Source: a bacterium
GTDB lineage: Bacteria > Patescibacteriota > Minisyncoccia > Phycocordibacterales > DATDWN01
Length of the DNA: 64,000 bases
Direction of reading: 5' to 3'
Assembly (NCBI GenBank): GCA_037134875.1
Contig: JBAXLH010000001.1
Coordinates: 106,646 to 170,645, forward strand
Below, in pieces: positions 20,228-40,548 of the stretch; positions within the stretch are counted from its first letter, which is position 1; each line of letters starts with the position of its first letter. The notes beneath the pieces were generated by a model. It was not told the DNA's origin. It saw nothing but the letters and a program-made list of their open reading frames with translations, and made no database searches. A program made the translations under genes and the position numbers.

Positions 20228-20248
20228 ATGTATAGTATATCAACCGGT

Positions 20249-20263
20249 GCTGCGGGACTTGGA
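20249..20263 (-). repeat. partial direct repeat of tRNA-Gln 3' end (island boundary / att remnant)
   Basis: 15/15 nt identical to 40477-40491 (gctgcgggacttgga), same orientation as the intact tRNA-Gln. Confidence 0.55.
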
Positions 20264-20544
20264 ATTTCTCCTCCGAATTTTTTCGTCTCGACAGACGAAA
20301 AAATTCTAGGCGCCGGATTGTCGACAAGCCGTGGTCGGCTCGTAAACCGCCAATCCGTTCAAATCCAAGTCGCAAATTTTCAATTTGCTTCCCGTCAGCA
20401 AAGCTAATGCTTCGCCTTTGCTTTGCTGACTGACTCGGTCTAGAACCATCCACGGTGAGACACCGTAAGGGTTCCTTGAGTACTTTTAGTGTAACAAATT
20501 TAGGGCTCTCAGTCGGGCTACCTCAAGCGCGAGTGTTACAAATG

Positions 20545-21861
20545 TTACGACTTTTTCCGTCGTTTCGGGCGAGCCGCCTTTTTGGCTCGCTTCTCCTCCC
20601 ATTTACGCTTCTCCTCAGCTTCCCGGGCAGCCATCTCCTCGGGAGGAACCACTCTCATATGCTCCAAGATCTTATAGCCCTTTAGGTGTTTAAGAGGATC
20701 AACAAAGTGGTACCACGGATGCATTGTGCTCCAAGTCTTACCGTCCTTCACCTCACTCGTCGACTGGGACTTAACCATGTCCTTGGGAGGCAAGAAGTCT
20801 TTGTTATCTTCCAACAGAAAGATTTCGCAATGAATACCCTGACCGTAACGGCTGATAGTACGAGATTTAAGGAGCCCATCCTTGACCCACTTTTTGAGGG
20901 TTTGGTGCTTAAGGTTGAAAGCTCGATCAAGATCCCACTTGCTGTACCAGCTATCTTTATCCTTCGCTAAGGAAGCCGGGATCTCTCCCTCATCGATAGC
21001 TTTCTGACAGACCAAACACTTCACGCCGTACTCGTCGTACCAACTGCCATCATCTTGCGATGACTCTCCGCATATAGCGCAGTTGCGACCACGACCTTCA
21101 AGAATGAAGCCCTTCGGATTTGCCTTTAATTTTTCTGCCCACTCCTCCTCTTGTTTCTTGAATTCTTCCATGAGCTTGCCGAGCTGTTCCATGTTGTACT
21201 TGGACTGCTCATACTCCCGACCTTCTTCGTCGGTCATACAGAAACGATCACGATCAGTGGCGAAGTTTGGATCAAACTCTTCGTCTTTAGGCGTTGACCA
21301 TTCGTGCTCGTCGACTTCAACATGTCCGCACTTCGGACACGTACGAGTGATAACGCATTTCTTTTTGTCGTCCTCTACTTTTTCTTCATAGGCAACATCG
21401 CAGCGCGGACAGAGGTGCGGCTTTACTCTCCACTCCTCACCATCAGAGAAAAAAGAACGCATCGGCAAACACTTGTTCGGGCATTCGTACATAAAGAGCA
21501 CTCGGTCTGGCTTATCCATCTCCATCCAAAGTTGCGAGAATGTCGGCTTTACCAAGTTGCGGCATGTGAGACAGCGAATGCCTTCTGGTGCTTTCGCATT
21601 CTCAAGTAAGTCATCGCGATTACGGTCGGCATCCATCCACTCGCGAATTGTTTTAGACTTATTCGTATACCGCTCTCCCTTGTCCATGTAGAGCATGAAC
21701 TTCTTTACTCCCGCCTTAACGCGCTCGTGCTCCTCTTTGTCTGTCCCCTCGGGGATATCGTCATCGCCGTCAAAAAGCTTTTCAGTCCTGCGGCATTTTT
21801 CAACCGTAAAACGGTCGTATAGGTCAGAATAGTAGAGATGGTCTTTAAGGTGTTTAGTCAT
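20545..21861 (-). CDS. hypothetical Cys-rich multi-zinc-ribbon protein with basic C-terminal tail
   Basis: Multiple CxxC pairs (CLTCRN, CPNKC, CPRCD, CPKCGH, CAICGE, CLVCQK). Tail KRKWEEKRAKKAARPKRRKKS. Island cargo. Confidence 0.5.
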   Translation of the reverse strand: MTKHLKDHLYYSDLYDRFTVEKCRRTEKLFDGDDDIPEGTDKEEHERVKAGVKKFMLYMDKGERYTNKSKTIREWMDADRNRDDLLENAKAPEGIRCLTCRNLVKPTFSQLWMEMDKPDRVLFMYECPNKCLPMRSFFSDGEEWRVKPHLCPRCDVAYEEKVEDDKKKCVITRTCPKCGHVEVDEHEWSTPKDEEFDPNFATDRDRFCMTDEEGREYEQSKYNMEQLGKLMEEFKKQEEEWAEKLKANPKGFILEGRGRNCAICGESSQDDGSWYDEYGVKCLVCQKAIDEGEIPASLAKDKDSWYSKWDLDRAFNLKHQTLKKWVKDGLLKSRTISRYGQGIHCEIFLLEDNKDFLPPKDMVKSQSTSEVKDGKTWSTMHPWYHFVDPLKHLKGYKILEHMRVVPPEEMAAREAEEKRKWEEKRAKKAARPKRRKKS

Positions 21862-21885
21862 ATCTATATTAAAATTATATAAAAT

Positions 21886-22032
21886 ATGAAAAAGAAGAAA
21901 AAGAGGCAGCTTACCGAGACCGAAGAAAAGGACGTGGATCGCTTTGTAGATAGGCTTGCGGAGATTTTACTCATGCAAGTTGAGCAGGAAGCACTAGCTA
22001 AAGAACTGCCAGGGAATGATAAGAAACGATAG
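21886..22032 (+). CDS. hypothetical small basic protein (48 aa), not in ORF track
   Basis: MKKKKKRQLTETEEKDVDRFVDRLAEILLMQVEQEALAKELPGNDKKR. Lies in the divergent intergenic region. Confidence 0.2.
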   Translation: MKKKKKRQLTETEEKDVDRFVDRLAEILLMQVEQEALAKELPGNDKKR

Positions 22033-22245
22033 GAATTGACATGAGTTGATAAGCGTGTGGTTATCCACAGTTATCTTTTTTAAGACCGGACAGATTATTT
22101 TGAGAAGCGTACAATGGTTAGTGAGAGCTATCCCTCCTAACGGTCTTCGTTTTGGATATAAACAGCTAACTCTCTTTATTGAAAAAAAGAGCGTCTTTTT
22201 GCTGTTACCAACTAACCAATACTAAGCGGTCGACTTATATCGCTG

Positions 22246-23661
22246 ATGCGAACTCCGCGTCACGAATCTTTTATCGAAATCAATTCGACACTCTTTCATA
22301 TTATCCAGCTAGTTTATAACCCCATGATTAAAAACAGTCTAAAGATTGAGTACGTTCCTATCGACTCACTCCATCACGTGGAATACAACCCACGTATTAT
22401 CAACGAAACTACGAAAGCATCAGTACGCGCGAGTATTGAGATGCACGGTATACAAGACCCCCTCATCATCAACCGTGCCCCCGAACGCAAGGGCGGTATT
22501 ATCGGCGGCAACCTCCGCTACGAGGTCATGAAGGATCTCGGCTTCACCGAAGTGCCCGTTATTTTTGTCGACATTCCAGAACTCGAACGAGAGAAAGATC
22601 TGTGCTTGCGTCTCAATAAGGCCGTCGGAGAGTGGGACCTCATCTTACTCGCCGAATTCGATGAGTCCTTCCTAACCAATGTAGGCTTCAACAGCGAGGA
22701 GATTGATGAAATATTTCCGGTCGACGAGACTCCGACTGAGTTCTCGCTCAAGCACGAACTTGAAAAGATAGGTATAGACGGTGTGACCGTAAAGAAAGGC
22801 GACCTATACGATCTCGATGGCTCCCGGCTCTATGTCGGCGATTCAACCGTCGAGTCAGACATGCTCGCCCTCTTTGGTGAGCACAAAGCAGATATGTGTA
22901 TGACCGACCCGCCGTACGATCTTGCATACCTCCACGGTAAAAAGCGTAACGGCAAAGCGACCGAAGGGTTCGGGCTCAAGCGTGATCGTAAGTATCTCGA
23001 AACCGATGAGTTGCCGGATGACTTTACGGATTTGTGGATGGCCAATGTCGCTAAAATTCAAAAGCCCGACTTCTCGATTATTGTCTACGAAGCTCCGAAG
23101 AACCTGCGCACCATTTGGAACGCGCTCGAGGCTCACTGGAAGTACCGCAACACGATAGTCTGGACGATTCCGAATCGTGTGCAAGGATTTTCAGCCAAGC
23201 TCAAGTTCTTCAATAAGCACGACATCGCTGTTGTAGGGACTTCGGGTGAGGTCGCGCTCCATACCGAGCCGGAAGACAACTTGCTATTCCAAAACGAATA
23301 TGAGACAGCTCTGTTTGCCACCTCAGGTAGGCCGCATTGGGAGTCGTATGGAAAAGACAAGCGATACTGTCCGACCGATGTTATTGACCACGTAGCTGCC
23401 GATGAAAAAGCATCAGGGCAAGGCATCATCTTTGGAGTGAAGCCGCTCCCTATACTCATCCCGTACATTAAGGTGCTGACCAAGCGTGGTGACATCGTTG
23501 TTGAACCCTTTGGAGGAAGCGGGTCGACCCTCATCGCCTCAAACACTATCGGTCGTCGCTGCTTCATTATGGAGAAGGTGCCGACCTATGCTGAGGTCAT
23601 TCTGAACCGCTGGGAGAAGTTCTCGGGCAAGAAGCGGGTAAAGATCCATGCACAAGCGTGA
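22246..23661 (+). CDS. ParB-like nuclease domain / DNA methyltransferase (N4/N6, DPPY) fusion
   Basis: N-terminal ParB domain (IEYVPIDSL...GGNLRYEVM). Methyltransferase motif IV DPPY (MTDPPYDLAY) and motif I FGGSGST. Confidence 0.8.
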   Translation: MRTPRHESFIEINSTLFHIIQLVYNPMIKNSLKIEYVPIDSLHHVEYNPRIINETTKASVRASIEMHGIQDPLIINRAPERKGGIIGGNLRYEVMKDLGFTEVPVIFVDIPELEREKDLCLRLNKAVGEWDLILLAEFDESFLTNVGFNSEEIDEIFPVDETPTEFSLKHELEKIGIDGVTVKKGDLYDLDGSRLYVGDSTVESDMLALFGEHKADMCMTDPPYDLAYLHGKKRNGKATEGFGLKRDRKYLETDELPDDFTDLWMANVAKIQKPDFSIIVYEAPKNLRTIWNALEAHWKYRNTIVWTIPNRVQGFSAKLKFFNKHDIAVVGTSGEVALHTEPEDNLLFQNEYETALFATSGRPHWESYGKDKRYCPTDVIDHVAADEKASGQGIIFGVKPLPILIPYIKVLTKRGDIVVEPFGGSGSTLIASNTIGRRCFIMEKVPTYAEVILNRWEKFSGKKRVKIHAQA

Positions 23662-24544
23662 TCAGCAAACCACACTGATTAAAACCCTCGCTGAGGGATA
23701 CACCATAACCGCCGCCTGCAAGCGAGCGGGTGTCTCTCGCATGTTCTATAACCGGCACTACAAGACAGATCTTGAATTCCGAAAGAAAGTAGACCGCGCG
23801 TATGTACTTGGCAAGCAAGTGAATGACGACCGTGTGTTGTCTGTGTACATGAAGCAGATAAATGAGGCTAGGGACTGGCGGCCCATTAAATATTATCTAG
23901 AACATAACGTGGGACCATACATGCAAAAAAATACTCCCTCACCGCCTGCGGCGGGTATGCTCAGTAGAGTTGAGGCTGCAACGTCTGAAATAGAAAAGTA
24001 CACCCAGTTCATTCGCTGGAGTTCCATGACTGCTGAAGAGCGTGCGTGGCACGGTATTGAAACGCGAGAGCAGTTTTGTAAGGCATACCAAGTACCAAAC
24101 CTTGGCATGCTTGCAATCTGGACACAACGTAAAGACTTCGAGCCACGAGTTAAAACGCTTCGCGAAGAATGGGTCTTTTCTAAAACCAGTGAGATACTCG
24201 GTGGCGTATATACAGCCGCTAGCAATGGTGATCACAAAAGTCAGAAACTATGGCTAGAGCATGTGTATCACATGACCGAAAAGAAGGAGGAAAATGTTCC
24301 AGGCCAAGTAGTAATTGCGCCGGGTGATATTAGATTCCTCATTGAGTCACTACCCGAGCCTCTCAAAACGAAACACTATTCGAGACTGAGAGAGCTCCTC
24401 GACGACTCAGCTGCAGCTGCTCAAGCAGGGACGCTTAAGGACTATCAGGACGCAGGGATCTTGGATAAAAATGGAGAAATAATAAATGACCTCGAGGGCA
24501 AGGAGCGTGACATAAATCACAAGCTAGACATCTATGACATCTAG
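23648..24544 (+). CDS. hypothetical HTH protein (terminase-small-subunit/transposase-like N-terminal HTH)
   Basis: TITAACKRAGVSRMFYNRHY HTH-like segment. Otherwise unknown. Confidence 0.4.
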   Translation: MHKRDQQTTLIKTLAEGYTITAACKRAGVSRMFYNRHYKTDLEFRKKVDRAYVLGKQVNDDRVLSVYMKQINEARDWRPIKYYLEHNVGPYMQKNTPSPPAAGMLSRVEAATSEIEKYTQFIRWSSMTAEERAWHGIETREQFCKAYQVPNLGMLAIWTQRKDFEPRVKTLREEWVFSKTSEILGGVYTAASNGDHKSQKLWLEHVYHMTEKKEENVPGQVVIAPGDIRFLIESLPEPLKTKHYSRLRELLDDSAAAAQAGTLKDYQDAGILDKNGEIINDLEGKERDINHKLDIYDI

Positions 24545-24801: not shown

Positions 24802-25395
24802 CTACTTTGAGAGAGATTGAATATCTGCGCGAGCCTTTGTGATATCGTCAGTGACCTTCTGCTCATCTGCACGTAACTTAGTAGTTGTTACTTCTTTGAT
24901 CTGCCAACTAACTGCGTCGCCAGCCCAGAGACAGATATCGCTTGCCGCGTTATTGATATCCTCATTCCAATTACCGAGCGCATCGGGTGAAGTGCCGGAG
25001 TATAAGTTATCGGCTTCTTGATAGGCACTCATTGCGTTAGTGCCCGGATCATTCTTGAGGCAGGTATTGGTGCGGAATGAACCGAGCTGGCTTGCGGCCG
25101 AACTTGGATCGTTAAGCGCTTTCAGACCTGCGTTCGCATCTGCGTACTGCGTTGTGCCGAGCACAGTCTTGGCAGAGCTTAATAACGACACGTAGTGGTC
25201 GGTGCTTGCCGAAAGAATTGCAGCAACCTTTTGCTTATCTGGAGCAGACGATGTCGCGACTACTACAGGATTTTGCACGGGCGCACTTTCCTGTGCCTGC
25301 TTGATAGGCTGCGGCGTATTTAGACCAATTATAAGTAACAAAACAAAACCGAGAACAACTACTCCGACAACGGAGTAGAGAACTTTTTTAGCCAT
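24802..25395 (-). CDS. hypothetical secreted/membrane-anchored protein
   Basis: N-terminal TM helix VLYSVVGVVVLGFVLLLIIGL. GC-rich island cargo. Confidence 0.45.
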   Translation of the reverse strand: MAKKVLYSVVGVVVLGFVLLLIIGLNTPQPIKQAQESAPVQNPVVVATSSAPDKQKVAAILSASTDHYVSLLSSAKTVLGTTQYADANAGLKALNDPSSAASQLGSFRTNTCLKNDPGTNAMSAYQEADNLYSGTSPDALGNWNEDINNAASDICLWAGDAVSWQIKEVTTTKLRADEQKVTDDITKARADIQSLSK

Positions 25396-25698: not shown

Positions 25699-26268
25699 TT
25701 AATGAAAAGTGACACCGCTCTTTTTGAGCTCATTACGTACCTCAGCATAGTTCGGAATAGTCTGTGATACGAGTTTCCAAAACTTCTTTGAATGATTAAA
25801 TTCTTTTAGGTGGCAGAGCTCGTGGACAATTATGTAATCAGATAGAGGCTTTGGTAAAAGTGCGATTTTATAGTTGAAATTAAGGTTACCTTTTCGAGAA
25901 CAGCTACCCCAACGCGTCTTCTGATTTTTGATATTGATCCGATTGAAATTAAACTCCCGTTTCTGATTGAAGTAGTTAACTCGATTTACTGCCAGTTTAT
26001 ATGCCTCGTCTTTGTACTTGAGGTAGTCCTCTTGGCTATACCTCGCAATTGCCTTACCCTTGAACTGCTTGAAAAAAGCAATTTTTGAGAAAAGCCATTC
26101 ACTTTTCTCATTAATGAATTTGTCGACAATGGTTTCTTTGAGATCAAAAGGGGTCGTGACCACAATGCTCCCATCACAGTACACAGCAAGGCGCATTCTT
26201 CGTGCCCGATGACTTTTTCGGAGAGTATAGGTAACTTGTTTATTTTCAAGTGCTATATGTTTCTTCAT
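25699..26268 (-). CDS. YgjP-like (DUF45) metal-dependent hydrolase
   Basis: WGSC...HELCHLKEFNHSKKFW (HExxH in DUF45 context). Immediately downstream of hsdR. Confidence 0.7.
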   Translation of the reverse strand: MKKHIALENKQVTYTLRKSHRARRMRLAVYCDGSIVVTTPFDLKETIVDKFINEKSEWLFSKIAFFKQFKGKAIARYSQEDYLKYKDEAYKLAVNRVNYFNQKREFNFNRINIKNQKTRWGSCSRKGNLNFNYKIALLPKPLSDYIIVHELCHLKEFNHSKKFWKLVSQTIPNYAEVRNELKKSGVTFH

Positions 26269-26270
26269 GG

Positions 26271-29177: not shown

Positions 29178-30409
29178 ATGGTTCTTTTCTTACCGGTCAG
29201 TAGATCTTGCATGAGGCCTTTTTTGAGAAGAGATAATTTTGATTTCAGTTCCTGATTAGTCGCAATCCTTTCTTCAATCGAAGAAAGGATGCTAGCAATT
29301 TTTTTCTGCTCCTGTATGGACGGAACAGGGACTTTATAACTTTTCATATAAGAAAGATTCAAGTGTGAGATATGCCCCTGAATTCCACCACTACGCAGTA
29401 ATTCATATTGGCTTTTCAAAAAAAGCCATAGATACTCGGAATCAATTTCTGTATTCGGTTCAATAGCAGCGGCGTTTTGTGTTGTGCATGCCTCGATTTT
29501 AAGGAGTGCAGTCTGTCCCCGTGTCTTTCCTTGACCATACATTGCAACAAGGATCGTTCCTGGCTGATATCTTTTTAGCCGATAGTCCTGAACTGCTTTA
29601 TCAGAAATATGCACCTCTGCCCGTTCAATTTTCTTATTTACAATCTCTCCCGTTTTGATAAAAGGATTATTGCCTTCGTAATACTCTTTTTTGCCTGTAG
29701 ACGGCGTGGTGCCGGTTGAGATAGTAGCTAGTTCTTCTAAATTTCTAAAAACAAATTTGGTTTTACCTGTTCCACTAGTAAAGAGATCTTTCATTAGCCC
29801 GCGCTTGAGTTTATCTGTCGCTTCAATAACTTCCTGTGTTTTTGCAATATCCTTATCAACTGTTCCCAAAATCTCTGCAATTTTCTGCTGTTCTTTTTTT
29901 GATTCCGGAATCAAGACTTGAATGGATTCAAATTTGCCTTTTGAAATAGTGTAGCGCGTTGCACCAACAGACGCTTTTTCAAATTGTCTAAGTACATCTC
30001 TAGCATTACAAAAATACGCTCGAAAATTAATGTCGATCTTATTGTCGTACTCCTCGTTAAATCTCAGTCGCGCCAAATGATAACTAAAGAGAGTATTCGG
30101 CAAATCCTTAGCCACTACAGCTGAGTGGCCAATATCATCAGGCGTTTCAGAAGAGGGGGTGAATAACATATCTCCAACCCTGACCTGTGCTACCTTAATT
30201 TCACTATCGCTGGCAGTCACTTCCATAAAATTAATGGAGTCATCAATAAATCCATGCTTGTAGACATCCATGTAGTTAACGAGCCTCACAGGCTTTTCGT
30301 CCCGCGCTATCTTTTTATCCACTCCACCGGTCTTAAACTCTCCCAAATCTGAAAGGTTTTTTATAACCCAACCACGCGGAATATTCTGTTGTTTCGTGTT
30401 AGTTGTCAT
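29174..30409 (-). CDS. hsdS: Type I R-M specificity subunit (two target-recognition domains)
   Basis: 411 aa, duplicated TRD architecture with conserved central/C-terminal helices. 4-nt overlap with hsdR. Confidence 0.8.
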   Translation of the reverse strand: MTTNTKQQNIPRGWVIKNLSDLGEFKTGGVDKKIARDEKPVRLVNYMDVYKHGFIDDSINFMEVTASDSEIKVAQVRVGDMLFTPSSETPDDIGHSAVVAKDLPNTLFSYHLARLRFNEEYDNKIDINFRAYFCNARDVLRQFEKASVGATRYTISKGKFESIQVLIPESKKEQQKIAEILGTVDKDIAKTQEVIEATDKLKRGLMKDLFTSGTGKTKFVFRNLEELATISTGTTPSTGKKEYYEGNNPFIKTGEIVNKKIERAEVHISDKAVQDYRLKRYQPGTILVAMYGQGKTRGQTALLKIEACTTQNAAAIEPNTEIDSEYLWLFLKSQYELLRSGGIQGHISHLNLSYMKSYKVPVPSIQEQKKIASILSSIEERIATNQELKSKLSLLKKGLMQDLLTGKKRTI

Positions 30410-31229: not shown

Positions 31230-31233
31230 AAAT

Positions 31234-33067: not shown

Positions 33068-34360
33068 TTGATGTATATGGAAACAAAGCAATTGGAGGCC
33101 CTCCGGTACTGCCTCTACGCACGCAAAAGTACCGAAGCAGAGGATAAACAGGCCCTTTCAATAGAGTCGCAGGTAAAGGAGATGCAAGTGCTCGCCGAGC
33201 GGGACGGGCTCCATATCGTAGAGATAAAGCGAGAGTCACACTCCTCCAAGGAGGTAGGCCAGCGGCCGGTATATAACCAGATGCTCGAGGACCTACGCTC
33301 ACAGAAGTTCAATGCAATACTCACATGGGCTCCGGATCGGTTGAGCCGCAATGCCGGAGACTTGGGGTCGGTCGTAGACCTCATGGACCAGAAGCTGCTG
33401 CATGAGATACGCACCTACGGGCAGAAGTTTACCAACAACCCGAATGAGAAGTTTTTGCTGATGATACTCGGGAGCCAAGCGAAACTTGAGAACGATAACA
33501 AGGCGGTGAATGTTAAGCGTGGATTGCGCACACGATGCGAGATGGGGTGGAGGCCCGGCGTTGCACCAACCGGATACTTAAACGAAAAGCACGTTGATAA
33601 AAAGTGCCAATGTAGGGTTGATCCAAAGCGCGGACCGGTCATCAAACAGATGTTTGAAAAAGTAGCCAATGAACAGTGGAGTGGGCGCAAGCTATATCGC
33701 TGGTTGAGAGAAATCGACTTCAAGACGCATCGCGGCAAGCCGTTGGTGCTGGCGAATGTGTACATAATTTTGCGAAACCCTTTTTATTACGGCGACTTTG
33801 AATACCCGGTCGGTGGAGGCAAGTGGTACACAGGCAAGCACACGCCAATCATTGATAAGGAGTTGTATACAAAAGTGCAAATGACACTGAACGCGAACTT
33901 TATACCCAAAACTGAGAGTAAAGAGTTTGCCTTTACCAAGCTCATACGATGCGGACACTGCGGCTCGGGCATATCCGCAGATGAGAAGTTCAAGAAGTTA
34001 AAAGACGGCGGTGTAAACAGGCACGTGTACTACTTCTGCACCAAGGCTCGGAATATAGACTGCAAGAATCCGGCCATAAATGAGCCGGGTCTGATCGAGG
34101 AGCTTATAGGTCTCATGGATAAGGTCAACATGGACGAACTAGGCATACGAACCCGGATAGAGGATGAAATAAAACGGTTTAACAAATTTAGGTCAGGCGT
34201 ACTTGGACACAAGCAAGACAAAATAGAGATCGACGTAGATGTAAGAAATTACACCAAGTACCTATTGAGAGAAGGGACGCTTATAGAGAAGCGCGAACTG
34301 CTCGGATGCCTTCAAAGCAAACTATTTCTGAATGACAAAAAAATCAGAATGGATAATTAA
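33068..34360 (+). CDS. large serine recombinase (integrase) 1
   Basis: Resolvase catalytic domain (YCLYARKSTEAED...SIESQ), recombinase domain and zinc ribbon (CGHCGS...YYFC). Confidence 0.85.
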   Translation: MMYMETKQLEALRYCLYARKSTEAEDKQALSIESQVKEMQVLAERDGLHIVEIKRESHSSKEVGQRPVYNQMLEDLRSQKFNAILTWAPDRLSRNAGDLGSVVDLMDQKLLHEIRTYGQKFTNNPNEKFLLMILGSQAKLENDNKAVNVKRGLRTRCEMGWRPGVAPTGYLNEKHVDKKCQCRVDPKRGPVIKQMFEKVANEQWSGRKLYRWLREIDFKTHRGKPLVLANVYIILRNPFYYGDFEYPVGGGKWYTGKHTPIIDKELYTKVQMTLNANFIPKTESKEFAFTKLIRCGHCGSGISADEKFKKLKDGGVNRHVYYFCTKARNIDCKNPAINEPGLIEELIGLMDKVNMDELGIRTRIEDEIKRFNKFRSGVLGHKQDKIEIDVDVRNYTKYLLREGTLIEKRELLGCLQSKLFLNDKKIRMDN

Positions 34361-35309
34361 TTGCAGTCCAATCGAGCACCAGAGGGTTGGGTTTTCCTGA
34401 ATTAGAATCTAACTCAAACTTAGGAATATAAAATTCCTTTTCATACTTCTCAAAACCAGTCGTAACAATCTTGAATATATTCCTAATGAGGGGGCTCTTC
34501 TGGTCAAAAAATCCAGTGCCAAAGTTAAGTCCGAATTGCGCATGGAACATTACTACCGCAGCGCCAACTGCGTAGACTGCATTTTCCAAAGTCGCGAACT
34601 TTAGATTTTCCTCTCGGTCGTGTTTAGTCTTGTTATAGGAGTCATACCAATTCAATGATGTCGTTGGATTACTAACATCCCACCCCTTAAAAGGTGCAAA
34701 AGCTGGGAAGTTCGGATATGACTGCAAAGATAGTTCGTATCCGTCTAAAAGCATCGGGTGATGCAGTTTTACATAGTCATTGGTAGTTAACCTCGGTGAG
34801 GAATACGTATTCTCTTTTAAGACCGCCGTCCACGATGACTCAACTTCCATAGATGCCAGTAGAATGATCTCCCTGATTTTGTGACCATAGACTGATAAAT
34901 TATCCTTGTTTGGTTCAATGGTTTCAAAGAGATATTCCAATTTGCCGAGCAATATACGCAGTGAGACAAAAGACTCATTTAATTTTTCTTGATAGGCAAT
35001 ATTAAATGGACGCCCTCCACATGCAAGAGGCCTCCACATTCTTTTGTAATAAGTGCCAAGGACGTAACTTGATTCAACCGGTTCGCTGTCACCAAAACTC
35101 TTTGTAACCCAATCTTTAATGTCGGTGAAGGTTGTATTTGGAACTTTAACGAAATGTACCTCACCTCCATGATTAACTCCCGAGGCAAAGAGGACACCCT
35201 GACCCTCGAAAGCAACTCCGCTCTCGTGGTGAAAAAAGAAGTCTTGATCAAAATTTGGTCCTTGTTTCCCATTAGGGAAAAATTTGTTTTGAAAAAATAA
35301 TATCTTCAT
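34344..35309 (-). CDS. hypothetical protein (unknown function) abutting repeat A
   Basis: ORF from MKILFFQNKFF. No motif. The upstream region is the 202-bp repeat A. Confidence 0.4.
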   Translation of the reverse strand: MKILFFQNKFFPNGKQGPNFDQDFFFHHESGVAFEGQGVLFASGVNHGGEVHFVKVPNTTFTDIKDWVTKSFGDSEPVESSYVLGTYYKRMWRPLACGGRPFNIAYQEKLNESFVSLRILLGKLEYLFETIEPNKDNLSVYGHKIREIILLASMEVESSWTAVLKENTYSSPRLTTNDYVKLHHPMLLDGYELSLQSYPNFPAFAPFKGWDVSNPTTSLNWYDSYNKTKHDREENLKFATLENAVYAVGAAVVMFHAQFGLNFGTGFFDQKSPLIRNIFKIVTTGFEKYEKEFYIPKFELDSNSGKPNPLVLDWTAINYPF

Positions 35310-35351
35310 AATCTGCGACCGACGTGTCTCAGTCACCTGACTTAGTATATG

Positions 35352-35553
35352 TTGGCTGTGTCTCCTGAACAAAATCCGAACTTTTTTCCAAACTAATCCG
35401 ACTGAGGATTAATCTGCGCGCCTCGCCCGCTCCCTTCGGTCGCGGGAGCAAAAACCAAAAATTTTCCTTACCTTTCTTATTTTCTTCGGCGGGGGGTGTG
35501 GGGGGAGCCGACAAAAAATGGAAAGGAAATTTTTGGTTTTGCTTCGCCGCTAC
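35352..35553. repeat. inverted repeat A (202 bp), left copy
   Basis: Near-identical inverted copy at 38588-38789. Outer end is ttggctg. Confidence 0.85.
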
Positions 35554-35819
35554 AGACTACGAAATGAACATTTACATTATATCATTTGTGGTTCTTTGGA
35601 GTTGTTCATTTCTCCGTCCTTGCGGCGATACGAGGCGCTTCCTCTCCGCGTTTGGTGATAGCTTGAAACTTTGTGCCTCCGACCGAGTTTAGTGGTACCT
35701 CACAAAGCGGATTGTGCTTGGCACAAACAAATCTTATTGTGCTTGCCCCGCCCGCCCTGTGCGCGCACAAATCCCCGCCGTTTTTAGGAAATATTATAAA
35801 ACGGCGGGGATTGCCTCCC

Positions 35820-36686
35820 TTATGCCGACTCAAATGCTTTTTTGAAAGCTGGTTCTTGCATAGCGGCATGGCTCGCGCCATACACGACAAAAACTCGCTT
35901 GTGAGTTTTGAATGCTTCAAGAATATCTCCAACAATTTTTTTATCTCTAAAAAGCGACGAGGCTTCGCCAATTCGATTCAAAATTGTTTGTTTTTCTTTT
36001 TTCTCGTCCCACGGTATCGGGTCAATCCGATCAAGTGCATTTGGGTCATTTTCAACATCTACAGCTTCGCCGAAAATCTGCTCGCCAAGTTTTATAGCGC
36101 GTTCGTATGAGTAATCGAAACCTTCCCAATTAGTTGTTCGTTTGAATCGGTCAATAAATCCAGAAACATATTTTTCAAATCCCTCTCGTTTCATTTGTCG
36201 ATTATATTGCGGAAGAATGTGGAAAACATCCCATGCAAATATTTGGTCTTTTGAAAATCCTTTGGCGAGCAAGTCGTTATACAAATCCTCGTCGGTTGGT
36301 TCGGGAGATTCCCAGTCAATTCCTTTTTCAACTCCTAATTTCAATGTAAGACCTGACTCGCCCATACGGTCAATTGCTTCCTCGCGTGTGGCAGATTTTA
36401 CTCTCTCATTAAATTTTGTTTTATCTCCGCGAACATTCATACCCTCGACAAAAACAATATCAGGATTCGCTTTATTGAAAGCGGCCTCAATTTCTGCGAA
36501 TAGAGGATTACTTGGGTCGCTTGTGTGAGGCGAGCCGAAGTAATAAAGTTCTTTATCTCCCGCTTTCAATTCAAAAACATATGGTGTTGCGTGTTCAATT
36601 TTGCTGTATTCCTCGGCAGTCATTATGCTACTCAAAACTGATTCTGTCGTTTCGGATTTATTTTTTGGTTGTTCAAATGTTTCCAT
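35820..36686 (-). CDS. TraB/GumN-family protein
   Basis: YYFGSPHTSDP and VYGASHAAM resemble TraB/GumN signatures. Inside the inverted-repeat-flanked cassette. Confidence 0.5.
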   Translation of the reverse strand: METFEQPKNKSETTESVLSSIMTAEEYSKIEHATPYVFELKAGDKELYYFGSPHTSDPSNPLFAEIEAAFNKANPDIVFVEGMNVRGDKTKFNERVKSATREEAIDRMGESGLTLKLGVEKGIDWESPEPTDEDLYNDLLAKGFSKDQIFAWDVFHILPQYNRQMKREGFEKYVSGFIDRFKRTTNWEGFDYSYERAIKLGEQIFGEAVDVENDPNALDRIDPIPWDEKKEKQTILNRIGEASSLFRDKKIVGDILEAFKTHKRVFVVYGASHAAMQEPAFKKAFESA

Positions 36687-36688
36687 AA

Positions 36689-37447
36689 TTATTTTTTGGA
36701 AACATAATCAATTATCTTGTCCCAATCGAGGTTATCTTTTGTATAAAAAAGGTCAATGACATCTTTTGTCATTTCGTTGATTTTCTTTACATAAAGTTGT
36801 TTAAAACTATCGTCTCGTTTCTTAGCTTCCTTATCCAGTGGTTGAATGATTTTTTTATACAATTCGTTATCGCCAGAGATAAGTTCCCAAAAAGCTTGTC
36901 CGCAAATTTTGTAATAACTAAGGTCGGGGTCTTTATTCACCTTATGTGGAACATTGTCTCGTCCATAAATACAGCCGTTTACAGAAACAATACTATTTTT
37001 ATTGAGTTCGGCACGAAGTAACTTTTTAGCAATTTTCAAGTTTCTTTTCAATGTATTTACTTGGTCAGAATTTCCCCAGTTTGGTCCGGATTTAATACCA
37101 ACGATATAGGTTTTTTCATCTCGATCAAAAATTAAATCAACGCTACGATATTTCCCTTCCTCCGCTTTTTTGCCCTTAAATACTTCGTGGCAAACATGGA
37201 TAGCCAGATTTTCCATCAAATCGCCGAAAATTGTTTCCTCTTGTGATGACAAAAAAGCGTCAAGAATACTTTTTGCCAAATCTCCTGCGGTCTCGATGTT
37301 CTTGGCCTTAAATAAGTAAGGATTTTTTCGTTTTGAAATATAAGAAAGTTTTGCCGATTCAAGTCGAGCAAGCCGTATTTCATAAAATGGTTTTATAACA
37401 TCAGAAGCGATAAAGGTATTTAGTTTTTCGTAGTTTAGTTTTTTCAT
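36689..37447 (-). CDS. putative Type II restriction endonuclease (PD-(D/E)xK)
   Basis: Position immediately downstream of C-protein and methyltransferase. Candidate D...D/ExK (SVDLIFDRDEKTYIVGIK). Confidence 0.5.
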   Translation of the reverse strand: MKKLNYEKLNTFIASDVIKPFYEIRLARLESAKLSYISKRKNPYLFKAKNIETAGDLAKSILDAFLSSQEETIFGDLMENLAIHVCHEVFKGKKAEEGKYRSVDLIFDRDEKTYIVGIKSGPNWGNSDQVNTLKRNLKIAKKLLRAELNKNSIVSVNGCIYGRDNVPHKVNKDPDLSYYKICGQAFWELISGDNELYKKIIQPLDKEAKKRDDSFKQLYVKKINEMTKDVIDLFYTKDNLDWDKIIDYVSKK

Positions 37448-37448
37448 A

Positions 37449-38315
37449 TTATTTCGTTTGCTCGTTAATATTTTCGACAGCCAGTTTGTGATATTCCTCC
37501 TGTATTTCAATACCTATTGAATTACGGTCAAGCTGAAAAGCGGCAATAGAAGTCGTGCCGGAACCCAAAAATGGGTCTAGAACGACGTCTCCGGGTTTTG
37601 TAAAAAGTTTAATAAACCAACTCGGTAGTTCTTTGGGAAAGACTGCACTATGTTTTTTGTTGGAACTTTCGGTCGCCATTGAAAGTACATTTGTAGGATA
37701 AGCTAAATCGCGACCTACCCAATTTGATACATTTTTTCCAAAACCGCTACCAACTTTTGAGTTATCTCGTTGCTTATCAGTTTCGCTAAGATTTTTCAAA
37801 CGAGTTTTTGCCCAATCTCCCATGGGGACTCTTACCTCATCTTGATACATATTAAAATCTTTTGATTTATTGAATTGCAAAAGTCGTTCCCAAGAATCAC
37901 GAAAACGGTTAGGCCACTTGCCCGGAAAGCAATTTTTTTTGTGCCAAATAAATTCTTCTGTCCAAAGCCAGCCCTGTTTTCGCATTGCGATAATTAGCTC
38001 CATGACATAGGTATGACGCTCACCATTTGCAACTTTTTCTTTAATATTCAAAACGAACGTTCCTTTTGGATGTAAAACTCGTAATAATTCTGCCGTCATA
38101 GGCAAAAACCATTCAACATATTTATCAGGACTAATTCCGCCGTAAGTGCTTTTCCTTTGGTCTGCGTAAGGTGGTGATGTGACGATAAGATCGACGGAAT
38201 TTTCTGGCAAACTTTTTAAAACATCAAGACAGTCGCCAAGAATAACATCCGCTTTTACTTTGGCTTTTGTCTTTGCATTAAACAAGTCAATTTTTTCTAT
38301 AGTGTTAATTGTCAT
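37449..38315 (-). CDS. Type II DNA methyltransferase (N4-C/N6-A, beta class)
   Basis: SPPY motif (LIVTSPPYAD) and motif I FLGSGTT. Confidence 0.85.
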   Translation of the reverse strand: MTINTIEKIDLFNAKTKAKVKADVILGDCLDVLKSLPENSVDLIVTSPPYADQRKSTYGGISPDKYVEWFLPMTAELLRVLHPKGTFVLNIKEKVANGERHTYVMELIIAMRKQGWLWTEEFIWHKKNCFPGKWPNRFRDSWERLLQFNKSKDFNMYQDEVRVPMGDWAKTRLKNLSETDKQRDNSKVGSGFGKNVSNWVGRDLAYPTNVLSMATESSNKKHSAVFPKELPSWFIKLFTKPGDVVLDPFLGSGTTSIAAFQLDRNSIGIEIQEEYHKLAVENINEQTK

Positions 38316-38320
38316 AAAAT

Positions 38321-38527
38321 TTATTTCAGCAATTCATCTGTTGAAACGCTAAGTGCTTTTGCAATATTGGAAATGGTAGAAAGAGTTGGATTTGTTTTGC
38401 CATTTTCGATATTGCTCACAAAACTTCGGCTAACGCCGAGTGTTCGCACAATATCGCCTTGTGTAATGCCTTTTTCTGTTCTGATTCGCTTTAGGTTTTT
38501 ACCCAACTTTGCAGACTCGCTTTTCAT
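38321..38527 (-). CDS. controller (C) protein, XRE-family HTH
   Basis: LGKNLKRIRTEKGITQGDIVRTLGVSRSFVSNIENGK. First gene of the C-M-R operon. Confidence 0.75.
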   Translation of the reverse strand: MKSESAKLGKNLKRIRTEKGITQGDIVRTLGVSRSFVSNIENGKTNPTLSTISNIAKALSVSTDELLK

Positions 38528-38587
38528 ATCCACAAGTATACCACTTCCAATTACATTATACACCAATATTATAGTATAATGTAATAG

Positions 38588-38789
38588 GTAGCGGCGAAGC
38601 AAAACCAAAAATTTCCTTTCCATTTTTTGTCGGCTCCCCCCACACCCCCCGCCGAAGAAAATAAGAAAGGTAAGGAAAATTTTTGGTTTTTGCTCCCGCG
38701 ACCGAAGGGAGCGGGCGAGGCGCGCAGATTAATCCTCAGTCGGATTAGTTTGGAAAAAAGTTCGGATTTTGTTCAGGAGACACAGCCAA
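38588..38789. repeat. inverted repeat A' (right copy)
   Basis: Reverse complement of 35352-35553. Confidence 0.85.
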
Positions 38790-38914
38790 GTTTCGGAATT
38801 CGTTTTTTCGCCAAAATTCGGAGCGTCGCAAAGCGACGCGACTGGGGTTTCCGCCAGAATTCGCCAAGGGTTTTTGAAATCCAAAAGAAGCGAGCGGGAC
38901 GCGAGGCGGGGGTT
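38783..38914. repeat. inverted repeat B (left copy), abuts A' sharing cagccaa
   Basis: Reverse complement matches 40349-40480. Confidence 0.8.
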
Positions 38915-38998
38915 TATGATGAGTACATCATTCAAAACAAAGTTTTGCGAGCCAATCTTGAAGCGATAATTATCAATATTTAACATAAACCTTTTTCT

Positions 38999-40537
38999 AT
39001 GAACAAATTCTTTCTGTATGCGAGAAAATCTACCGACGAGCCAGATCGTCAGATTTTGAGTATTGAATCGCAGATTGACGAGTTGAAAGAATTTGCAAAG
39101 CGAGAGCAGTTGGAAATTGTTGAAACTTTTATTGAATCACAAACCGCCAAAGAGCCGGGGCGACCTATTTTCAACAATATGCTCTCGCTTATAGAAAAAG
39201 GTAAAGCGTCAGGAATTTTAGCTTGGCACCCCGATAGATTGGCGAGAAATAGTATTGATGGTGGAAAGATAATCTATCTGTGCGACCTTGGTAAAATTAA
39301 AGAGCTAAAATTCCCGACGTTTTGGTTCGACGCTACGCCACAAGGTAAGTTTATGTTAAATATTGCTTTTGGGCAGAGCAAATACTATGTAGATAATCTT
39401 TCAGAGAATGTGAAGCGCGGACTTCGACAAAAAGTAAGACGAGGCGAACAGAGCGGTCAAGCTCCGACGGGATATGTGAATGATAAGTTGAACAAGAAAA
39501 TTATTCCCGATGTGGAAAGATTTCGCCTCGTCAGGAAAATGTTCGAAGTCTACGCCACGGGAAATTATTCTCTGAAAGATACAAGGAATTTGCTCGCCCA
39601 AAAGGGCTTGGTGTCTAAAAATGGTAAAGTTCTCACTGTTTCAAACACGCAAATGATATTGAAAAATCCGTTCTACTATGGAATGTTTTTCTTTAACAAA
39701 GAACTTTACCAAGGAAAGCACGAGCCAGCGATTTCAAAGAAACTTTTTGATAAATGCGCTGAAGTATCGGCGAGGAATGCTCACCCGATGAAGCGAGGAA
39801 TTAACAAACATATCTTTCGCGGAATACTTTCGTGTGCAGAATGCGGATGTGGTATCACTAGCGAAGTGCAAAAGGGTCATACCTACTATCGTTGCACCAA
39901 AAAGAAAGGTGTCTGCACACAAAAATATATCCGCGAAGAATTCCTCGCCGAACAAGCTAATGATATTATCAAAAAAGTTTCTTTGCCGTCCGAGTGGAAA
40001 GAATTCATGCTCGCTGAACTCGAAAAGGAACAAGCGAGCAGTTTCCACTCTGACGCCCTTTTCGTTCAAAATCTGAAAAATCAAATCAAAAGTGTTGAGG
40101 AGACGCTAGACAAGCTCCTTGACGCTCATTTGGATAGCACAATTACGAGCGAGGAGTATATCGGCAAGAAGCAAAAGCTCCTCAACCAAAAAATTGATTT
40201 TTCAGAGAAATTGAAAGATTTTGAACGAAAAGGCAATCGCTGGCTCGAACTTTCTCGTCAATTCATTTTAGACAGTAACCAAGCCATAATTATCGCTTCC
40301 GAAGAAAATCTCGAAGCCAAAAGAGATTTTCTTAAAAAGATTGGCTCGAACCCCCGCCTCGCGTCCCGCTCGCTTCTTTTGGATTTCAAAAACCCTTGGC
40401 GAATTCTGGCGGAAACCCCAGTCGCGTCGCTTTGCGACGCTCCGAATTTTGGCGAAAAAACGAATTCCGAAACTTGGCTGCGGGACTTGGATTCGAACCA
40501 AGATGACACGATTCAGAGTCGCGTATCCTACCATTAG
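38999..40537 (+). CDS. large serine recombinase (integrase) 2; last ~60 codons read through repeat B' and antisense tRNA-Gln
   Basis: Resolvase domain (FLYARKSTDEPDRQILSIESQ), recombinase domain and zinc ribbon (CAECGCG...YYRC). Confidence 0.8.
   Translation: MNKFFLYARKSTDEPDRQILSIESQIDELKEFAKREQLEIVETFIESQTAKEPGRPIFNNMLSLIEKGKASGILAWHPDRLARNSIDGGKIIYLCDLGKIKELKFPTFWFDATPQGKFMLNIAFGQSKYYVDNLSENVKRGLRQKVRRGEQSGQAPTGYVNDKLNKKIIPDVERFRLVRKMFEVYATGNYSLKDTRNLLAQKGLVSKNGKVLTVSNTQMILKNPFYYGMFFFNKELYQGKHEPAISKKLFDKCAEVSARNAHPMKRGINKHIFRGILSCAECGCGITSEVQKGHTYYRCTKKKGVCTQKYIREEFLAEQANDIIKKVSLPSEWKEFMLAELEKEQASSFHSDALFVQNLKNQIKSVEETLDKLLDAHLDSTITSEEYIGKKQKLLNQKIDFSEKLKDFERKGNRWLELSRQFILDSNQAIIIASEENLEAKRDFLKKIGSNPRLASRSLLLDFKNPWRILAETPVASLCDAPNFGEKTNSETWLRDLDSNQDDTIQSRVSYH
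40349..40480. repeat. inverted repeat B' (right copy), ends at tRNA-Gln CCA terminus
   Basis: Reverse complement of 38783-38914. Confidence 0.8.
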
Positions 40538-40548
40538 ATGATCCCGCA
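40475..40548 (-). tRNA. tRNA-Gln (anticodon CUG)
   Basis: Cloverleaf read by hand. Acceptor UGCGGGA/UCCCGCA, D-arm with GG, anticodon stem CGCGA/UCGUG, loop CUCUGAA, T-arm CUUGG-UUCGAAU-CCAAG. CCA encoded. Confidence 0.8.

What the first reader, a model, noticed from the sequence alone, without database searches (positions are those of the whole stretch)
20249..40548. ~20-kb genomic island at the tRNA-Gln(CUG) 3' end, bounded by a 15-nt direct repeat and carrying R-M systems and two serine recombinases
The intact tRNA-Gln (40475-40548, minus strand) has its 3' end facing lower coordinates. An exact 15-nt copy of its 3' segment (gctgcgggacttgga) recurs in the same orientation at 20249-20263, just upstream of the host HD-domain gene. 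This is the standard footprint of site-specific integration into a tRNA 3' end. Most of the interval (20545-34360) is visibly GC-richer than the ~37% host flanks. The cargo is almost all mobile or defence genes: Cys-rich zinc-ribbon protein, ParB-MTase fusion, HTH protein, Type I R-M plus YgjP, two large serine recombinases, Type II C-M-R. Integration at a tRNA by large serine recombinases rather than a tyrosine integrase is less common and worth documenting.
Basis: partly seen in the sequence, partly recalled or inferred. Interest (0 to 1): 0.8.

Follow-up and report, generated by a model that had tools for sequence, protein, structure and literature searches.

The report
Three stacked mobile elements at tRNA-Gln
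The 20-kb "island" next to a glutamine tRNA gene of an uncultured Patescibacteria bacterium is a stack of three separately inserted elements, and the newest belongs to a large family of small defence-gene carriers with an unusual mirrored-repeat layout that seems undescribed.

Summary
tRNA-Gln(CUG) lies at 40475-40548(-). The exact 15-mer occurs only at 20249-20263 and 40477-40491. The listed genes, including two large serine recombinases (LSRs), are present.

The interval is a tandem stack of three units, not one island.
- E0 (20249-20428) is an old 161-bp module plus the 15-nt repeat. A related species (L015) has the same module directly after its tRNA-Gln, with a repeat matching its own tRNA.
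- E1 (~20429-35351) carries ParB-methylase, a TerS-like gene, type I R-M and LSR1.
- E2 (35352-40480) carries type II C-M-R and LSR2. It inserted between E1 and the tRNA.

E1 and E2 share only a 4-7-nt core (GCTG) with the tRNA end. Both LSR families recur at tRNA 3' ends elsewhere: 49 of 56 LSR2-family loci abut tRNA-Gln, Ser, Asn or Trp.

The LSR2 reading frame runs through the attachment site into the antisense tRNA. In 41 of 45 loci the element arm carries the tRNA T-loop motif exactly 5 nt farther from the core, which is the known attP/attB signature.

E2-family elements have nested inverted repeats around the recombinase and around the mostly R-M cargo. This implies a free circle with two inverted attP copies. 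I found no description of that architecture.

The parts
40475..40548 (-). tRNA-Gln(CUG), the integration target. Its 3' end faces the island, and the CCA and discriminator region is supplied by the E2 P arm.
19700..20227 (-). HD-domain gene, the left flank outside the island
20249..20263 (+). 15-nt direct repeat of the tRNA-Gln 3' end. It is the distal boundary of the old module E0.
20264..20424 (.). E0: a 161-bp non-coding module. It contains palindrome 20275-20306 and an inverted T-arm-like piece at 20357-20371. It is 87% identical to L015 6265-6425, where it directly follows tRNA-Gln.
20425..20428 (.). GCTG core at the E0/E1 junction (attL of E1)
20429..20517 (.). E1 left-end arm (ACTGACTCGGTCTAGAACC...TTTTAGTGTAACAAATTTAGG). 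It is conserved at the left end of the LSR1-family element in L175-L177.
20545..21861 (-). E1 cargo: 438-aa Cys-rich protein (16 Cys, CxxC pairs), no family match
22246..23661 (+). E1 backbone: ParB_N + N6/N4 DNA methylase fusion
23648..24544 (+). E1 backbone: 298-aa protein with a weak small-terminase-like HTH N-terminus
24802..25395 (-). E1 cargo: 197-aa protein of unknown function
25699..26268 (-). YgjP-like metallopeptidase
26271..29177 (-). Type I restriction subunit HsdR
29174..30409 (-). Type I specificity subunit HsdS
30399..31229 (-). 276-aa protein of unknown function inside the type I operon (phrog_25239)
31234..32979 (-). Type I methylase HsdM with an N-terminal MerR/HTH fusion
33068..34360 (+). 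LSR1, the large serine recombinase of E1 (37% identical to LSR2)
34344..35309 (-). E1 cargo between LSR1 and the E1 right arm: 321-aa protein (phrog_19461, unknown function). The mechanical ORF extends to 35372.
35326..35351 (.). E1 right-end arm (CTCAGTCACCTGACTTAGTATATG). In L171 and L173-L176 the same arm abuts tRNA-Gln.
35352..35560 (+). E2 left X arm, beginning with the core TTGGCTG (site A = E1 arm | X)
35820..36686 (-). E2 cargo: 288-aa protein, weak TraB/PrgY/GumN-like match below threshold
36689..37510 (-). E2 cargo: EcoO109I-family type II restriction endonuclease
37449..38315 (-). E2 cargo: N4/N6 DNA methylase
38321..38623 (-). E2 cargo: HTH_3 controller (C) protein. Its 5' end lies in the X arm.
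38581..38789 (-). E2 right X arm, the inverted copy (209 nt, 99%; 202 nt exact)
38783..38914 (-). Inverted copy of the P arm. Together with the adjacent X arm it forms an intact inverted attP-type site (site B, core 38783-38789).
38999..40537 (+). LSR2, the large serine recombinase of E2. Its last 21 codons run antisense through the tRNA-Gln gene.
40349..40480 (+). P arm: the 3' coding end of LSR2 up to the core TTGGCTG at 40474-40480 (site C = P | tRNA, attR)

Best explanation
The region between the HD gene and tRNA-Gln(CUG) is a tandem accretion of three units. Each entered at the extreme 3' end of the same tRNA gene and pushed the older ones away.

(1) E0 (20249-20428) is the oldest unit. 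It is a 161-bp module ending in the 15-nt copy of the tRNA 3' end.

(2) E1 (~20429-35351, 14.9 kb) belongs to a widespread Patescibacteria element family.
- The family backbone is ParB-methylase, a TerS-like HTH protein and LSR1.
- In the window it is loaded with a type I R-M system, YgjP and genes of unknown function.
- LSR1 recombined E1 with the tRNA at a GCTG core.

(3) E2 (35352-40480, 5.1 kb) is the youngest unit and carries a type II C-M-R cassette.
- LSR2 recombined an attP (P arm | core | X arm) with the tRNA end. At that time the tRNA was flanked by E1's right arm.
- LSR2 recognises the tRNA T-loop/T-stem as its attB half-site.
- The X arm carries the same TYCGAAC motif 5 nt farther out, as serine-integrase attP half-sites do.
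- Because attP lies inside the LSR2 reading frame, integration swaps the recombinase's last ~18 residues for a tail encoded antisense to the tRNA.
- E2 keeps a second, intact, inverted attP copy between cargo and recombinase. The recombinase and the cargo are therefore each bracketed by long inverted repeats.

Most likely model for E2: the free form is a small circle with two inverted attP repeats separating two unique segments. Either copy can be used for integration. That gives the two isomers seen in nature (window type and L186 type).

What is shown: coordinates, repeats, arm homologies, family-wide tRNA association, the 5-nt motif shift, the cargo content, and the existence of both isomers in different genomes.

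What is inferred: order of insertion, the crossover dinucleotide, the circular two-attP intermediate, current activity, and any regulatory role of the orientation.
For: Layering:
- L015 has tRNA-Gln followed by a module 87% identical to 20264-20424, then a repeat of its own tRNA end.
- The E1 left arm is conserved in L175.
- The E1 right arm CTCAGTCACCTGACTTAGCATATG|TGGCTG abuts tRNA-Gln in L171 and L173-L176, and equals window 35326-35358.

E1 family:
- The ParB-MTase, HTH protein and LSR1 backbone recurs.
- tRNA-Gln lies 0.1-2.5 kb beyond LSR1 in L171, L173, L175, L188 and L195.

E2 family:
- 49 of 56 loci have an antisense tRNA at the LSR 3' end: 25 Gln, 22 Ser, 1 Asn, 1 Trp.
- 61 of 73 loci have the inverted repeat around the LSR, median 124 nt and 99.25% identity.
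- A second repeat pair surrounds a 2-5-kb cargo in about 30 loci.
- The core is 4 nt, GCTG for Gln and GCGG for Ser.
- The T-loop-like heptamer is exactly 5 nt farther out in the X arm than in the tRNA arm in 41 of 45 loci. This matches the attP/attB ZD-motif shift reported for LI integrase (PMC3783163).
- The cargo is mostly R-M and other defence genes.
- Among the 120 best homologues, both C-terminal tail types exist: 49 tRNA-encoded and 13 X-arm-encoded.
- L186 is a complete flipped isomer with 85-nt arms in a k141 contig.

Composition: E1 and E2 are tetranucleotide outliers.
Against: - No empty site (HD gene directly after tRNA-Gln, or E1 directly abutting the tRNA) was found in any sample. 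Every contig carrying the identical HD or 321-aa protein also carries E1 or E2, or ends there.
- No circular form, and no pair of orientations within one population, was observed.
- Canonical serine integrases do not recombine attP with attR or attP with attP without extra factors, so in-place inversion by LSR2 is not expected.
- Inverted repeats longer than the assembler k-mer make the cargo orientation arbitrary (window repeat I1, 202 nt, against k=141). They may also inflate arm identity through collapse.
- The P arm does not show a clear mirror image of the X-arm motif in the Gln clade.
- The 15-mer's first 11 nt past the core covary with the host tRNA in both the window and L015. This fits a crossover deeper in the tRNA for E0 and is unexplained.
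Confidence: 0.7

Rival explanations
1. A single 20-kb genomic island integrated once into tRNA-Gln, with the 15-nt direct repeat as its attL/attR core.
For: The exact 15-mer occurs only at the two ends and in the same orientation. An integrase gene lies next to the tRNA.
Against: - L015 has the distal 161-bp module plus repeat directly after its tRNA, with nothing in between.
- E1 and E2 each have their own conserved end arms and recur separately elsewhere.
- The LSR att cores are only 4-7 nt.
- The right copy of the 15-mer is simply part of the tRNA.
Confidence: 0.05
2. The nested inverted repeats of E2 are a site-specific inversion switch. LSR2 acts as an invertase. It flips its own gene, which is convergent with the tRNA in one state and co-directional and read-through in the other. 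It may also flip the R-M cassette, giving phase-variable mobility or defence.
For: - The repeats are conserved and abut at the recombination core in more than 60 loci.
- Both orientations of the LSR segment exist: the window type, and L186, L100 and L106.
- Arm identity is higher within a locus than between loci, 99.25% against 93.7%.
Against: - The two orientations were seen only in different genomes, never within one population.
- The flanking sites are attP-type and attR-type, a pairing that canonical serine integrases do not recombine (PMC3783163).
- Mismatches between arms show no core-proximal conservation.
- Either isomer can arise at integration from a two-attP circle.
Confidence: 0.2
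3. The inverted repeats are passive by-products. They arose as ancient duplications and are kept similar by RecA-dependent gene conversion, with no role in the element's life cycle.
For: - Mismatches are spread evenly along the arms.
- The left P copy continues as a decayed, indel-interrupted copy of the LSR 3' end beyond the identical block.
- Arm identity ranges from 77% to 100%.
- The distant relative L080 lacks the repeats.
Against: The same two-pair architecture, with arms meeting exactly at the core, is kept across clades only ~55% identical in protein and using different tRNAs. That is hard to explain without selection.
Confidence: 0.15
4. The repeat architecture is an assembly artefact of de Bruijn graph walks through repeats.
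For: The palindromic contigs L117, L168 and L129 look like such walks. Window repeat I1 exceeds k=141.
Against: - The junctions Y|X, X|P and P|tRNA are each spanned by unique sequence.
- The pattern recurs in more than 60 contigs from many studies and assemblers, some over 250 kb.
- Window repeat I2 (132 nt) and the L186 arms (85 nt) are shorter than k.
Confidence: 0.03

Closest known systems
Serine-integrase (large serine recombinase) integration systems such as phiC31, Bxb1 and A118/LI integrase
   Same: Both share the Resolvase + Recombinase + zinc-ribbon architecture and a very short shared core. The attP-type half-site carries the zinc-ribbon-domain motif 5 bp farther from the centre than the attB-type half-site (PMC3783163).
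   Different: - The target is the 3' end of tRNA genes, and the recognised motif is the T-loop.
- attP lies inside the recombinase reading frame.
- The elements are 2-8-kb defence cassettes, not phages.
- There is a second, inverted attP copy.
- LSR2 is under 28% identical to phage integrases.
Integrases whose attP lies inside their own gene (Mx8 IntP, SSV1-type integrases; recalled from memory, not checked here)
   Same: Integration changes or splits the 3' end of the integrase gene. Here the tail changes from X-arm-encoded (..LLNKIRTFF..NP..) to tRNA-antisense-encoded (..DLDSNQD..SYH).
   Different: Those are tyrosine recombinases, and no inverted duplicate of attP is involved.
Tycheposons of Prochlorococcus (10.1101/2020.12.28.424599)
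   Same: They are cargo-carrying elements at tRNA genes that stack in islands. The preprint reports a tyrosine recombinase in 910 of 937 elements (tycheposons and cryptic elements together) and a large serine recombinase in the rest.
   Different: Tycheposons are mostly tyrosine-recombinase elements and many carry replication modules. No nested inverted repeats are reported there. The host phylum differs.
Mobile restriction-modification units (Furuta, Abe and Kobayashi 2010, PMC2853133)
   Same: [quoted passage not shown]
   Different: There the two forms are separate, and the integrases described at tRNAs are tyrosine-type or unclassified. Here one element combines both, and the repeats meet at the recombinase's core.
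Yeast 2-micron plasmid (FLP/FRT) and herpes simplex L/S genome isomerisation (recalled from memory)
   Same: Two unique segments are each bracketed by inverted repeats, with the recombination target inside the repeat and the recombinase encoded in one unique segment. Isomers differ by segment orientation.
   Different: - The recombinase is serine-type, not tyrosine-type.
- No replication origin was identified.
- The element is found integrated, and the circular form is inferred rather than seen.

Membership tests
tRNA-integrated genomic island | Intact tRNA gene at one boundary, with its 3' end facing the island | tested here: met
tRNA-integrated genomic island | Direct repeat of the tRNA 3' end at the far boundary, produced by the integration event | tested here: inconclusive
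   The 15-mer is real but bounds only the old 161-bp module, which is also present in L015. E1 and E2 share only GCTG/TTGGCTG with the tRNA.
tRNA-integrated genomic island | Integrase gene at the tRNA-proximal end | tested here: met
   LSR2 overlaps the tRNA. LSR1 lies 1 kb from E1's tRNA-proximal arm.
tRNA-integrated genomic island | Empty site in related genomes | tested here: inconclusive
   - FtsE-FtsX-PyrG-tRNA-Gln synteny is conserved, and only 2 of the 80 related loci fetched have an LSR near that tRNA.
- L015 has the tRNA followed directly by E0.
- No genome with HD directly after the tRNA was found.
tRNA-integrated genomic island | Atypical composition | tested here: met
   Tetranucleotide distances are 0.259 (E1) and 0.291 (E2), against a host maximum of 0.191. 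E1 is 44.7% GC against about 40.6% for the flanks.
Large serine recombinase / serine integrase | Resolvase catalytic domain plus Recombinase domain plus zinc beta-ribbon | tested here: met
   Both proteins match above the Pfam cut-offs. A YARKST serine motif is present.
Large serine recombinase / serine integrase | attP and attB half-sites carry the same outer motif, shifted by 5 bp | tested here: met
   For the LSR2 family, 41 of 45 loci show the shift (PMC3783163). E1's left arm shows no such shift: its TCTAGAACC motif sits at the tRNA spacing.
Large serine recombinase / serine integrase | Catalytic activity and a 2-bp staggered crossover | not testable with these tools
   The shared core narrows the crossover to GCTG/GCGG.
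Large serine recombinase / serine integrase | Recombination directionality factor for excision | not tested
   No candidate was identified.
Invertible segment / shufflon controlled by a serine invertase | Inverted repeats flanking the segment, with the crossover site inside them | tested here: met
Invertible segment / shufflon controlled by a serine invertase | Both orientations coexist in one population | tested here: inconclusive
   Both isomers are seen, but in different genomes (window against L186). Repeats at or above the assembler k-mer hide the orientation.
Invertible segment / shufflon controlled by a serine invertase | Small (about 190 aa) Hin/Gin-type invertase | tested here: not met
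   The recombinase is a 512-aa LSR.
2-micron-type plasmid | Circular replicon with its own origin and two inverted repeats carrying the recombination target | tested here: inconclusive
   The repeat layout fits if the element is excised. No circle and no replication gene were found.
2-micron-type plasmid | Tyrosine recombinase (Flp) | tested here: not met
   The recombinase is serine-type.
Prophage or phage satellite (for E1) | Packaging or structural genes (TerL, portal, capsid) | tested here: not met
   E1 has only a weak TerS-like HTH, below threshold. More distant LSR1-family loci in IMG/VR do carry TerS-like plus Terminase_6C genes.
Type I R-M system | HsdR, HsdM and HsdS together | tested here: met
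Type II R-M system with controller protein | Endonuclease, methylase and HTH C-protein in one cluster | tested here: met

The most novel reading that the evidence does not exclude
The LSR2 family defines a new class of miniature integrative defence cassettes in Patescibacteria, with three features.
- Their serine integrase reads the universally conserved tRNA T-loop as its attB motif, which would explain its hopping between tRNA-Gln, Ser, Asn and Trp.
- The recombinase gene itself spans attP.
- The elements exist as two-attP flip-flop molecules, in which recombinase and cargo modules are each bracketed by inverted repeats and can be integrated or inverted in either orientation. This possibly couples recombinase expression to read-through from the tRNA promoter.
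Probability: 0.35. Interest if true: 0.8.

Novelty: new variant of a known kind. Interest (0 to 1): 0.62.

Why it matters
- It shows how ultra-small, non-conjugative Patescibacteria genomes acquire and stack defence systems. Two unrelated-looking serine-recombinase element families use the same 4-nt core at the end of a tRNA gene.
- It links a family of thousands of uncharacterised recombinases to a defined, highly conserved DNA target, the tRNA T-loop. Serine integrases with natural sites in conserved genes are sought as genome-engineering tools.
- The nested inverted-repeat layout, if functional, would be a new way of organising a serine-integrase element. Long reads or a simple in vitro assay could test it directly.
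- For annotation, it warns that a direct repeat at a tRNA need not mark the boundaries of the DNA it encloses.

Tried and rejected
- Empty-site search. Exact look-ups of the HD, EamA and 321-aa proteins found only occupied or truncated contigs. HD homologues at 78-87% identity gave no clean tRNA-Gln/HD junction; L183 has tRNA-Gln 3.8 kb upstream of its HD homologue.
- Contig ends. Logan contigs L008 and L010 end exactly at the tRNA 3' end. I considered this evidence of site heterogeneity and rejected it, because sharing of the tRNA between genomes explains it equally well.
- tRNA pseudogene in 20150-20700. Rfam found none. The "degenerate tRNA remnant" at 20426-20448 turned out to be the conserved left arm of E1.
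- A 13-nt repeat, TAACAAATTTAGG, at 20492-20504 and 34180-34192 was considered as an LSR1 att core. It was dropped once the E1 arms were defined by comparison.
- Core-proximal conservation between the P-arm copies, tested as a sign of a selected second attP, showed no gradient.
- Mirror symmetry of the P arm with the X-arm motif is approximate in the Ser clade and not convincing in the Gln clade (by eye).
- The palindromic contigs L117, L168 and L129 were examined as possible composite structures and set aside as probable graph-walk artefacts.
- The literature searches, plus passages read, gave no description of this architecture. The library is incomplete.
- PADLOC, PHROGs and Pfam gave nothing for the 438-, 197- and 288-aa proteins.

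Full report
**Observation**

ARAGORN places tRNA-Gln(CUG) at 40475-40548 on the minus strand. GCTGCGGGACTTGGA occurs exactly twice in the window, at 20249-20263 and 40477-40491, in the same orientation. No third copy appears even with two mismatches, and 0 of 100 shuffles reach two matches. The right copy is the tRNA 3' end, from the first C of CCA into the T-stem.

Pfam confirms the gene list: HD gene, ParB_N-methylase fusion, YgjP, HsdR/S/M, two Resolvase + Recombinase + Zn-ribbon proteins, and an EcoO109I-type endonuclease with methylase and HTH controller.

The host is an uncultured Patescibacteria (Paceibacteria/Zambryskibacteria-like) genome.

GC content is 44.7% for 20429-35351 and 40.3% for 35352-40480, against 40.4% and 40.9% for the flanks. 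Both blocks are tetranucleotide outliers.

**The tRNA site in relatives**

In 80 related species, FtsE-FtsX-PyrG-(EamA)-tRNA-Gln(CUG) is conserved, but nothing from window 1-20 kb follows the tRNA. Only two loci (L060, L080) have a serine recombinase there. The region downstream of this tRNA is therefore a variable hotspot. The island genes are absent from the closest available genomes. No genome with the HD gene directly after the tRNA was found.

**The 15-mer belongs to an old mini-module (E0)**

In L015 (PyrG 80% identical), tRNA-Gln is followed directly by a 161-bp sequence 87% identical to window 20264-20424. Next comes TTCCAAGTCTCGCAGC, a repeat of L015's own tRNA end, which differs from the window's at the same position in both copies. 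The module and its repeat are therefore a separate, older unit. Everything between it and the tRNA in the window was inserted later.

**E1**

LSR1 has thousands of close homologues in Parcubacteria.
- In L171/L172, L175-L177 and L188 it sits in a conserved backbone of ParB-methylase, a 220-aa HTH protein (weakly small-terminase-like), optional cargo, then LSR1.
- tRNA-Gln lies 0.1-2.5 kb beyond LSR1, in L173/L174 as well, and is convergent with it.
- The sequence abutting the tRNA in those loci, CTCAGTCACCTGACTTAGCATATG|TGGCTG, is the sequence at window 35326-35358.
- The left end of the L175 element aligns with window 20424-20517: TGCTG|A..CTCGGTCTRGAACC..GTAAGGGTTC..TTTTAGT.

Hence E1 spans about 20429-35351. 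It entered at a GCTG core between the tRNA and E0. More distant family members in IMG/VR carry TerS-like and TerL-like genes. The window's E1 has no TerL or structural genes.

**E2**

At 35352 the E1 arm is joined through TTGGCTG to a different sequence (the X arm). E2 therefore inserted between E1 and the tRNA.

LSR2 (38999-40537) reads through the junction at 40474-40480, and its last 21 codons are antisense to the tRNA.

Two long inverted repeats are present:
- 38783-38914 against 40349-40480 (132 nt, 100%), bracketing LSR2;
- 35352-35560 against 38581-38789 (209 nt, 99%), bracketing the 288-aa gene and the R-M-C cassette.

The arms meet at the shared core. This gives three sites: A = E1 arm|X, B = inverted P|X, and C = P|tRNA.

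**Family-wide support**

Eighty metagenome loci with LSR2 homologues (53-97% identity) were analysed.
- 49 of 56 with sequence beyond the gene have an antisense tRNA at its 3' end: 25 Gln, 22 Ser, 1 Asn, 1 Trp.
- 61 of 73 have the repeat around the recombinase, median 124 nt and 99.25% identity, against 93.7% between close loci.
- About 30 show the second pair around a 2-5-kb cargo.
- Chains of four segments, as in L150, are two such elements in tandem.
- The sequence shared by sites A, B and C shrinks to 4 nt, GCTG for Gln and GCGG for Ser. This is the last acceptor-stem bases, the discriminator and the first C of CCA.
- In 41 of 45 loci the T-loop-like heptamer TYCGAAC lies exactly 5 nt farther from the core in the X arm than in the tRNA arm.
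- Rutherford et al. describe this same rule for attP against attB half-sites of LI integrase: base pairs 16-24 against 11-19 (PMC3783163). If the crossover dinucleotide is taken to be the TG of the core, the heptamer ends at positions 24 and 19 here.
- So P|X is an attP, the tRNA supplies the attB half-site, and site B is a complete inverted attP retained inside the integrated element.
- The cargo of 31 bracketed segments is dominated by DNA methylases (14) and restriction enzymes (EcoRI, HinP1I, ScaI, MvaI, TdeIII). It also includes ThsB-TIR, AGS_C, AAA_13 and HNH proteins.

**Isomers**

Among the 120 best LSR2 homologues, 49 end in the tRNA-encoded tail (..DLDSNQD..SYH) and 13 in an X-arm-encoded tail (..LLNKIRTFF..NP..). 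Many others are cut at the junction.

L186 is a k141 contig with 85-nt arms. Its layout is tRNA-Gln(+)|P'-LSR-P|X-R-M cargo-X'|flank, which is the window arrangement with the recombinase segment flipped. L100 and L106 look the same but are incomplete.

A circle with two inverted attP copies would give both isomers at integration. In-place inversion would also give them. That could happen through homologous recombination between the arms, or less canonically through the recombinase. I could not distinguish these routes: mismatches between the arms show no core-proximal gradient, and no single population shows both states.

**Caveats**

- Repeats longer than the assembler k-mer make the orientation of the window's 3-kb cargo arbitrary.
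- The same problem may inflate arm identity and probably created the palindromic contigs L117, L168 and L129.
- A 39%-identical relative in a long-read MAG (L080) overlaps tRNA-Gln but has no repeats. The architecture is therefore a derived trait of the LSR2 clade.
- Activity, excision and the circular form are all inferred.

**Comparison with known systems**

- Integration of islands at tRNA 3' ends and their tandem accretion are classical.
- Serine recombinases at tRNAs are uncommon but reported, for example as a minority in the tycheposon study.
- R-M units with integrases at tRNAs, and R-M units flanked by long inverted repeats, were catalogued by Furuta et al..
- LSR2 is under 28% identical to phage integrases.
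- I found no description of a serine-integrase element whose attP lies in the integrase frame, mimics the tRNA T-arm, and is duplicated in inverted orientation so that both modules are bracketed by repeats.
- The nearest formal analogues are the 2-micron plasmid and the herpes simplex L/S arrangement (from memory).

**Verdict**

The finding is real and the tRNA/serine-recombinase link is right. However, the "island" is three stacked elements, and the 15-nt repeat is not their footprint. The island as first framed is ordinary. The E2 family architecture and its T-loop recognition raise the interest.

Noticed in passing
window 45130-46179 (-) and 46018-46173: The mechanical 349-aa RF1 ORF runs over both tRNA-Thr genes. 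Relatives call RF1 as 293 aa ending before tRNA-Thr, so the ORF start is over-extended rather than a true overlap.
   Followed up: partly
L196 607-1684 (equivalent to window ~35465): In sample ERZ27300137 a contig is 100% identical to window 28344-35465. It carries a 1.08-kb insertion inside the left X arm, with a 321-aa gene that has a weak InsA-type zinc ribbon. It looks like an IS-like insertion in a strain variant.
   Followed up: partly
window 20264-20424; L015 6265-6425; L019 13267-13329: A 161-bp non-coding module with a 32-nt palindrome (20275-20306) and an inverted T-arm-like piece is conserved at 84-87% between species. It may be a miniature non-autonomous element or the skeleton of a decayed one. 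The first 11 nt past the core covary with each host's tRNA, which is unexplained.
   Followed up: partly
window 11000-20248: The left flank is GC-poor (37.4%, with a minimum of 29.5% at 14-15 kb). It holds small accessory genes (GrpB, NTP_transf_2, SnoaL, DUF6498, Dabb, HD) that are not syntenic after tRNA-Gln in any of 80 relatives. It may be older variable DNA.
   Followed up: no
L126 9712-11537: An LSR2-family gene lies between two different tRNA-Gln genes in inverted orientation: CTG upstream and TTG at its 3' end. This may be a chromosomal rearrangement through the internal attP.
   Followed up: partly
window 38729-38986 (-): An 85-aa ORF encodes a copy of the last ~44 residues of LSR2 fused to the X-arm tail. 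It is a by-product of the inverted P arm, and it is unknown whether it is expressed.
   Followed up: no
L187 2008-8013: An LSR2-family element carries an unusual cargo: HTH protein, Ymh protein, RadC-C5 methylase fusion, HpaII endonuclease and an RVT_1 reverse transcriptase.
   Followed up: no
window 31234-32979: The type I methylase HsdM carries an N-terminal MerR/HTH_17 DNA-binding domain.
   Followed up: no
L171 5918-6331: A bAvd (diversity-generating retroelement accessory) gene lies just upstream of an E1-type element.
   Followed up: no
L189, L191, L192, L195 (IMG/VR): More distant LSR1-family elements carry a TerS-like HTH gene followed by a ~510-aa Terminase_6C protein, together with R-M cargo. 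No capsid genes appear among the Pfam hits seen. This hints at satellite-like packaging.
   Followed up: partly
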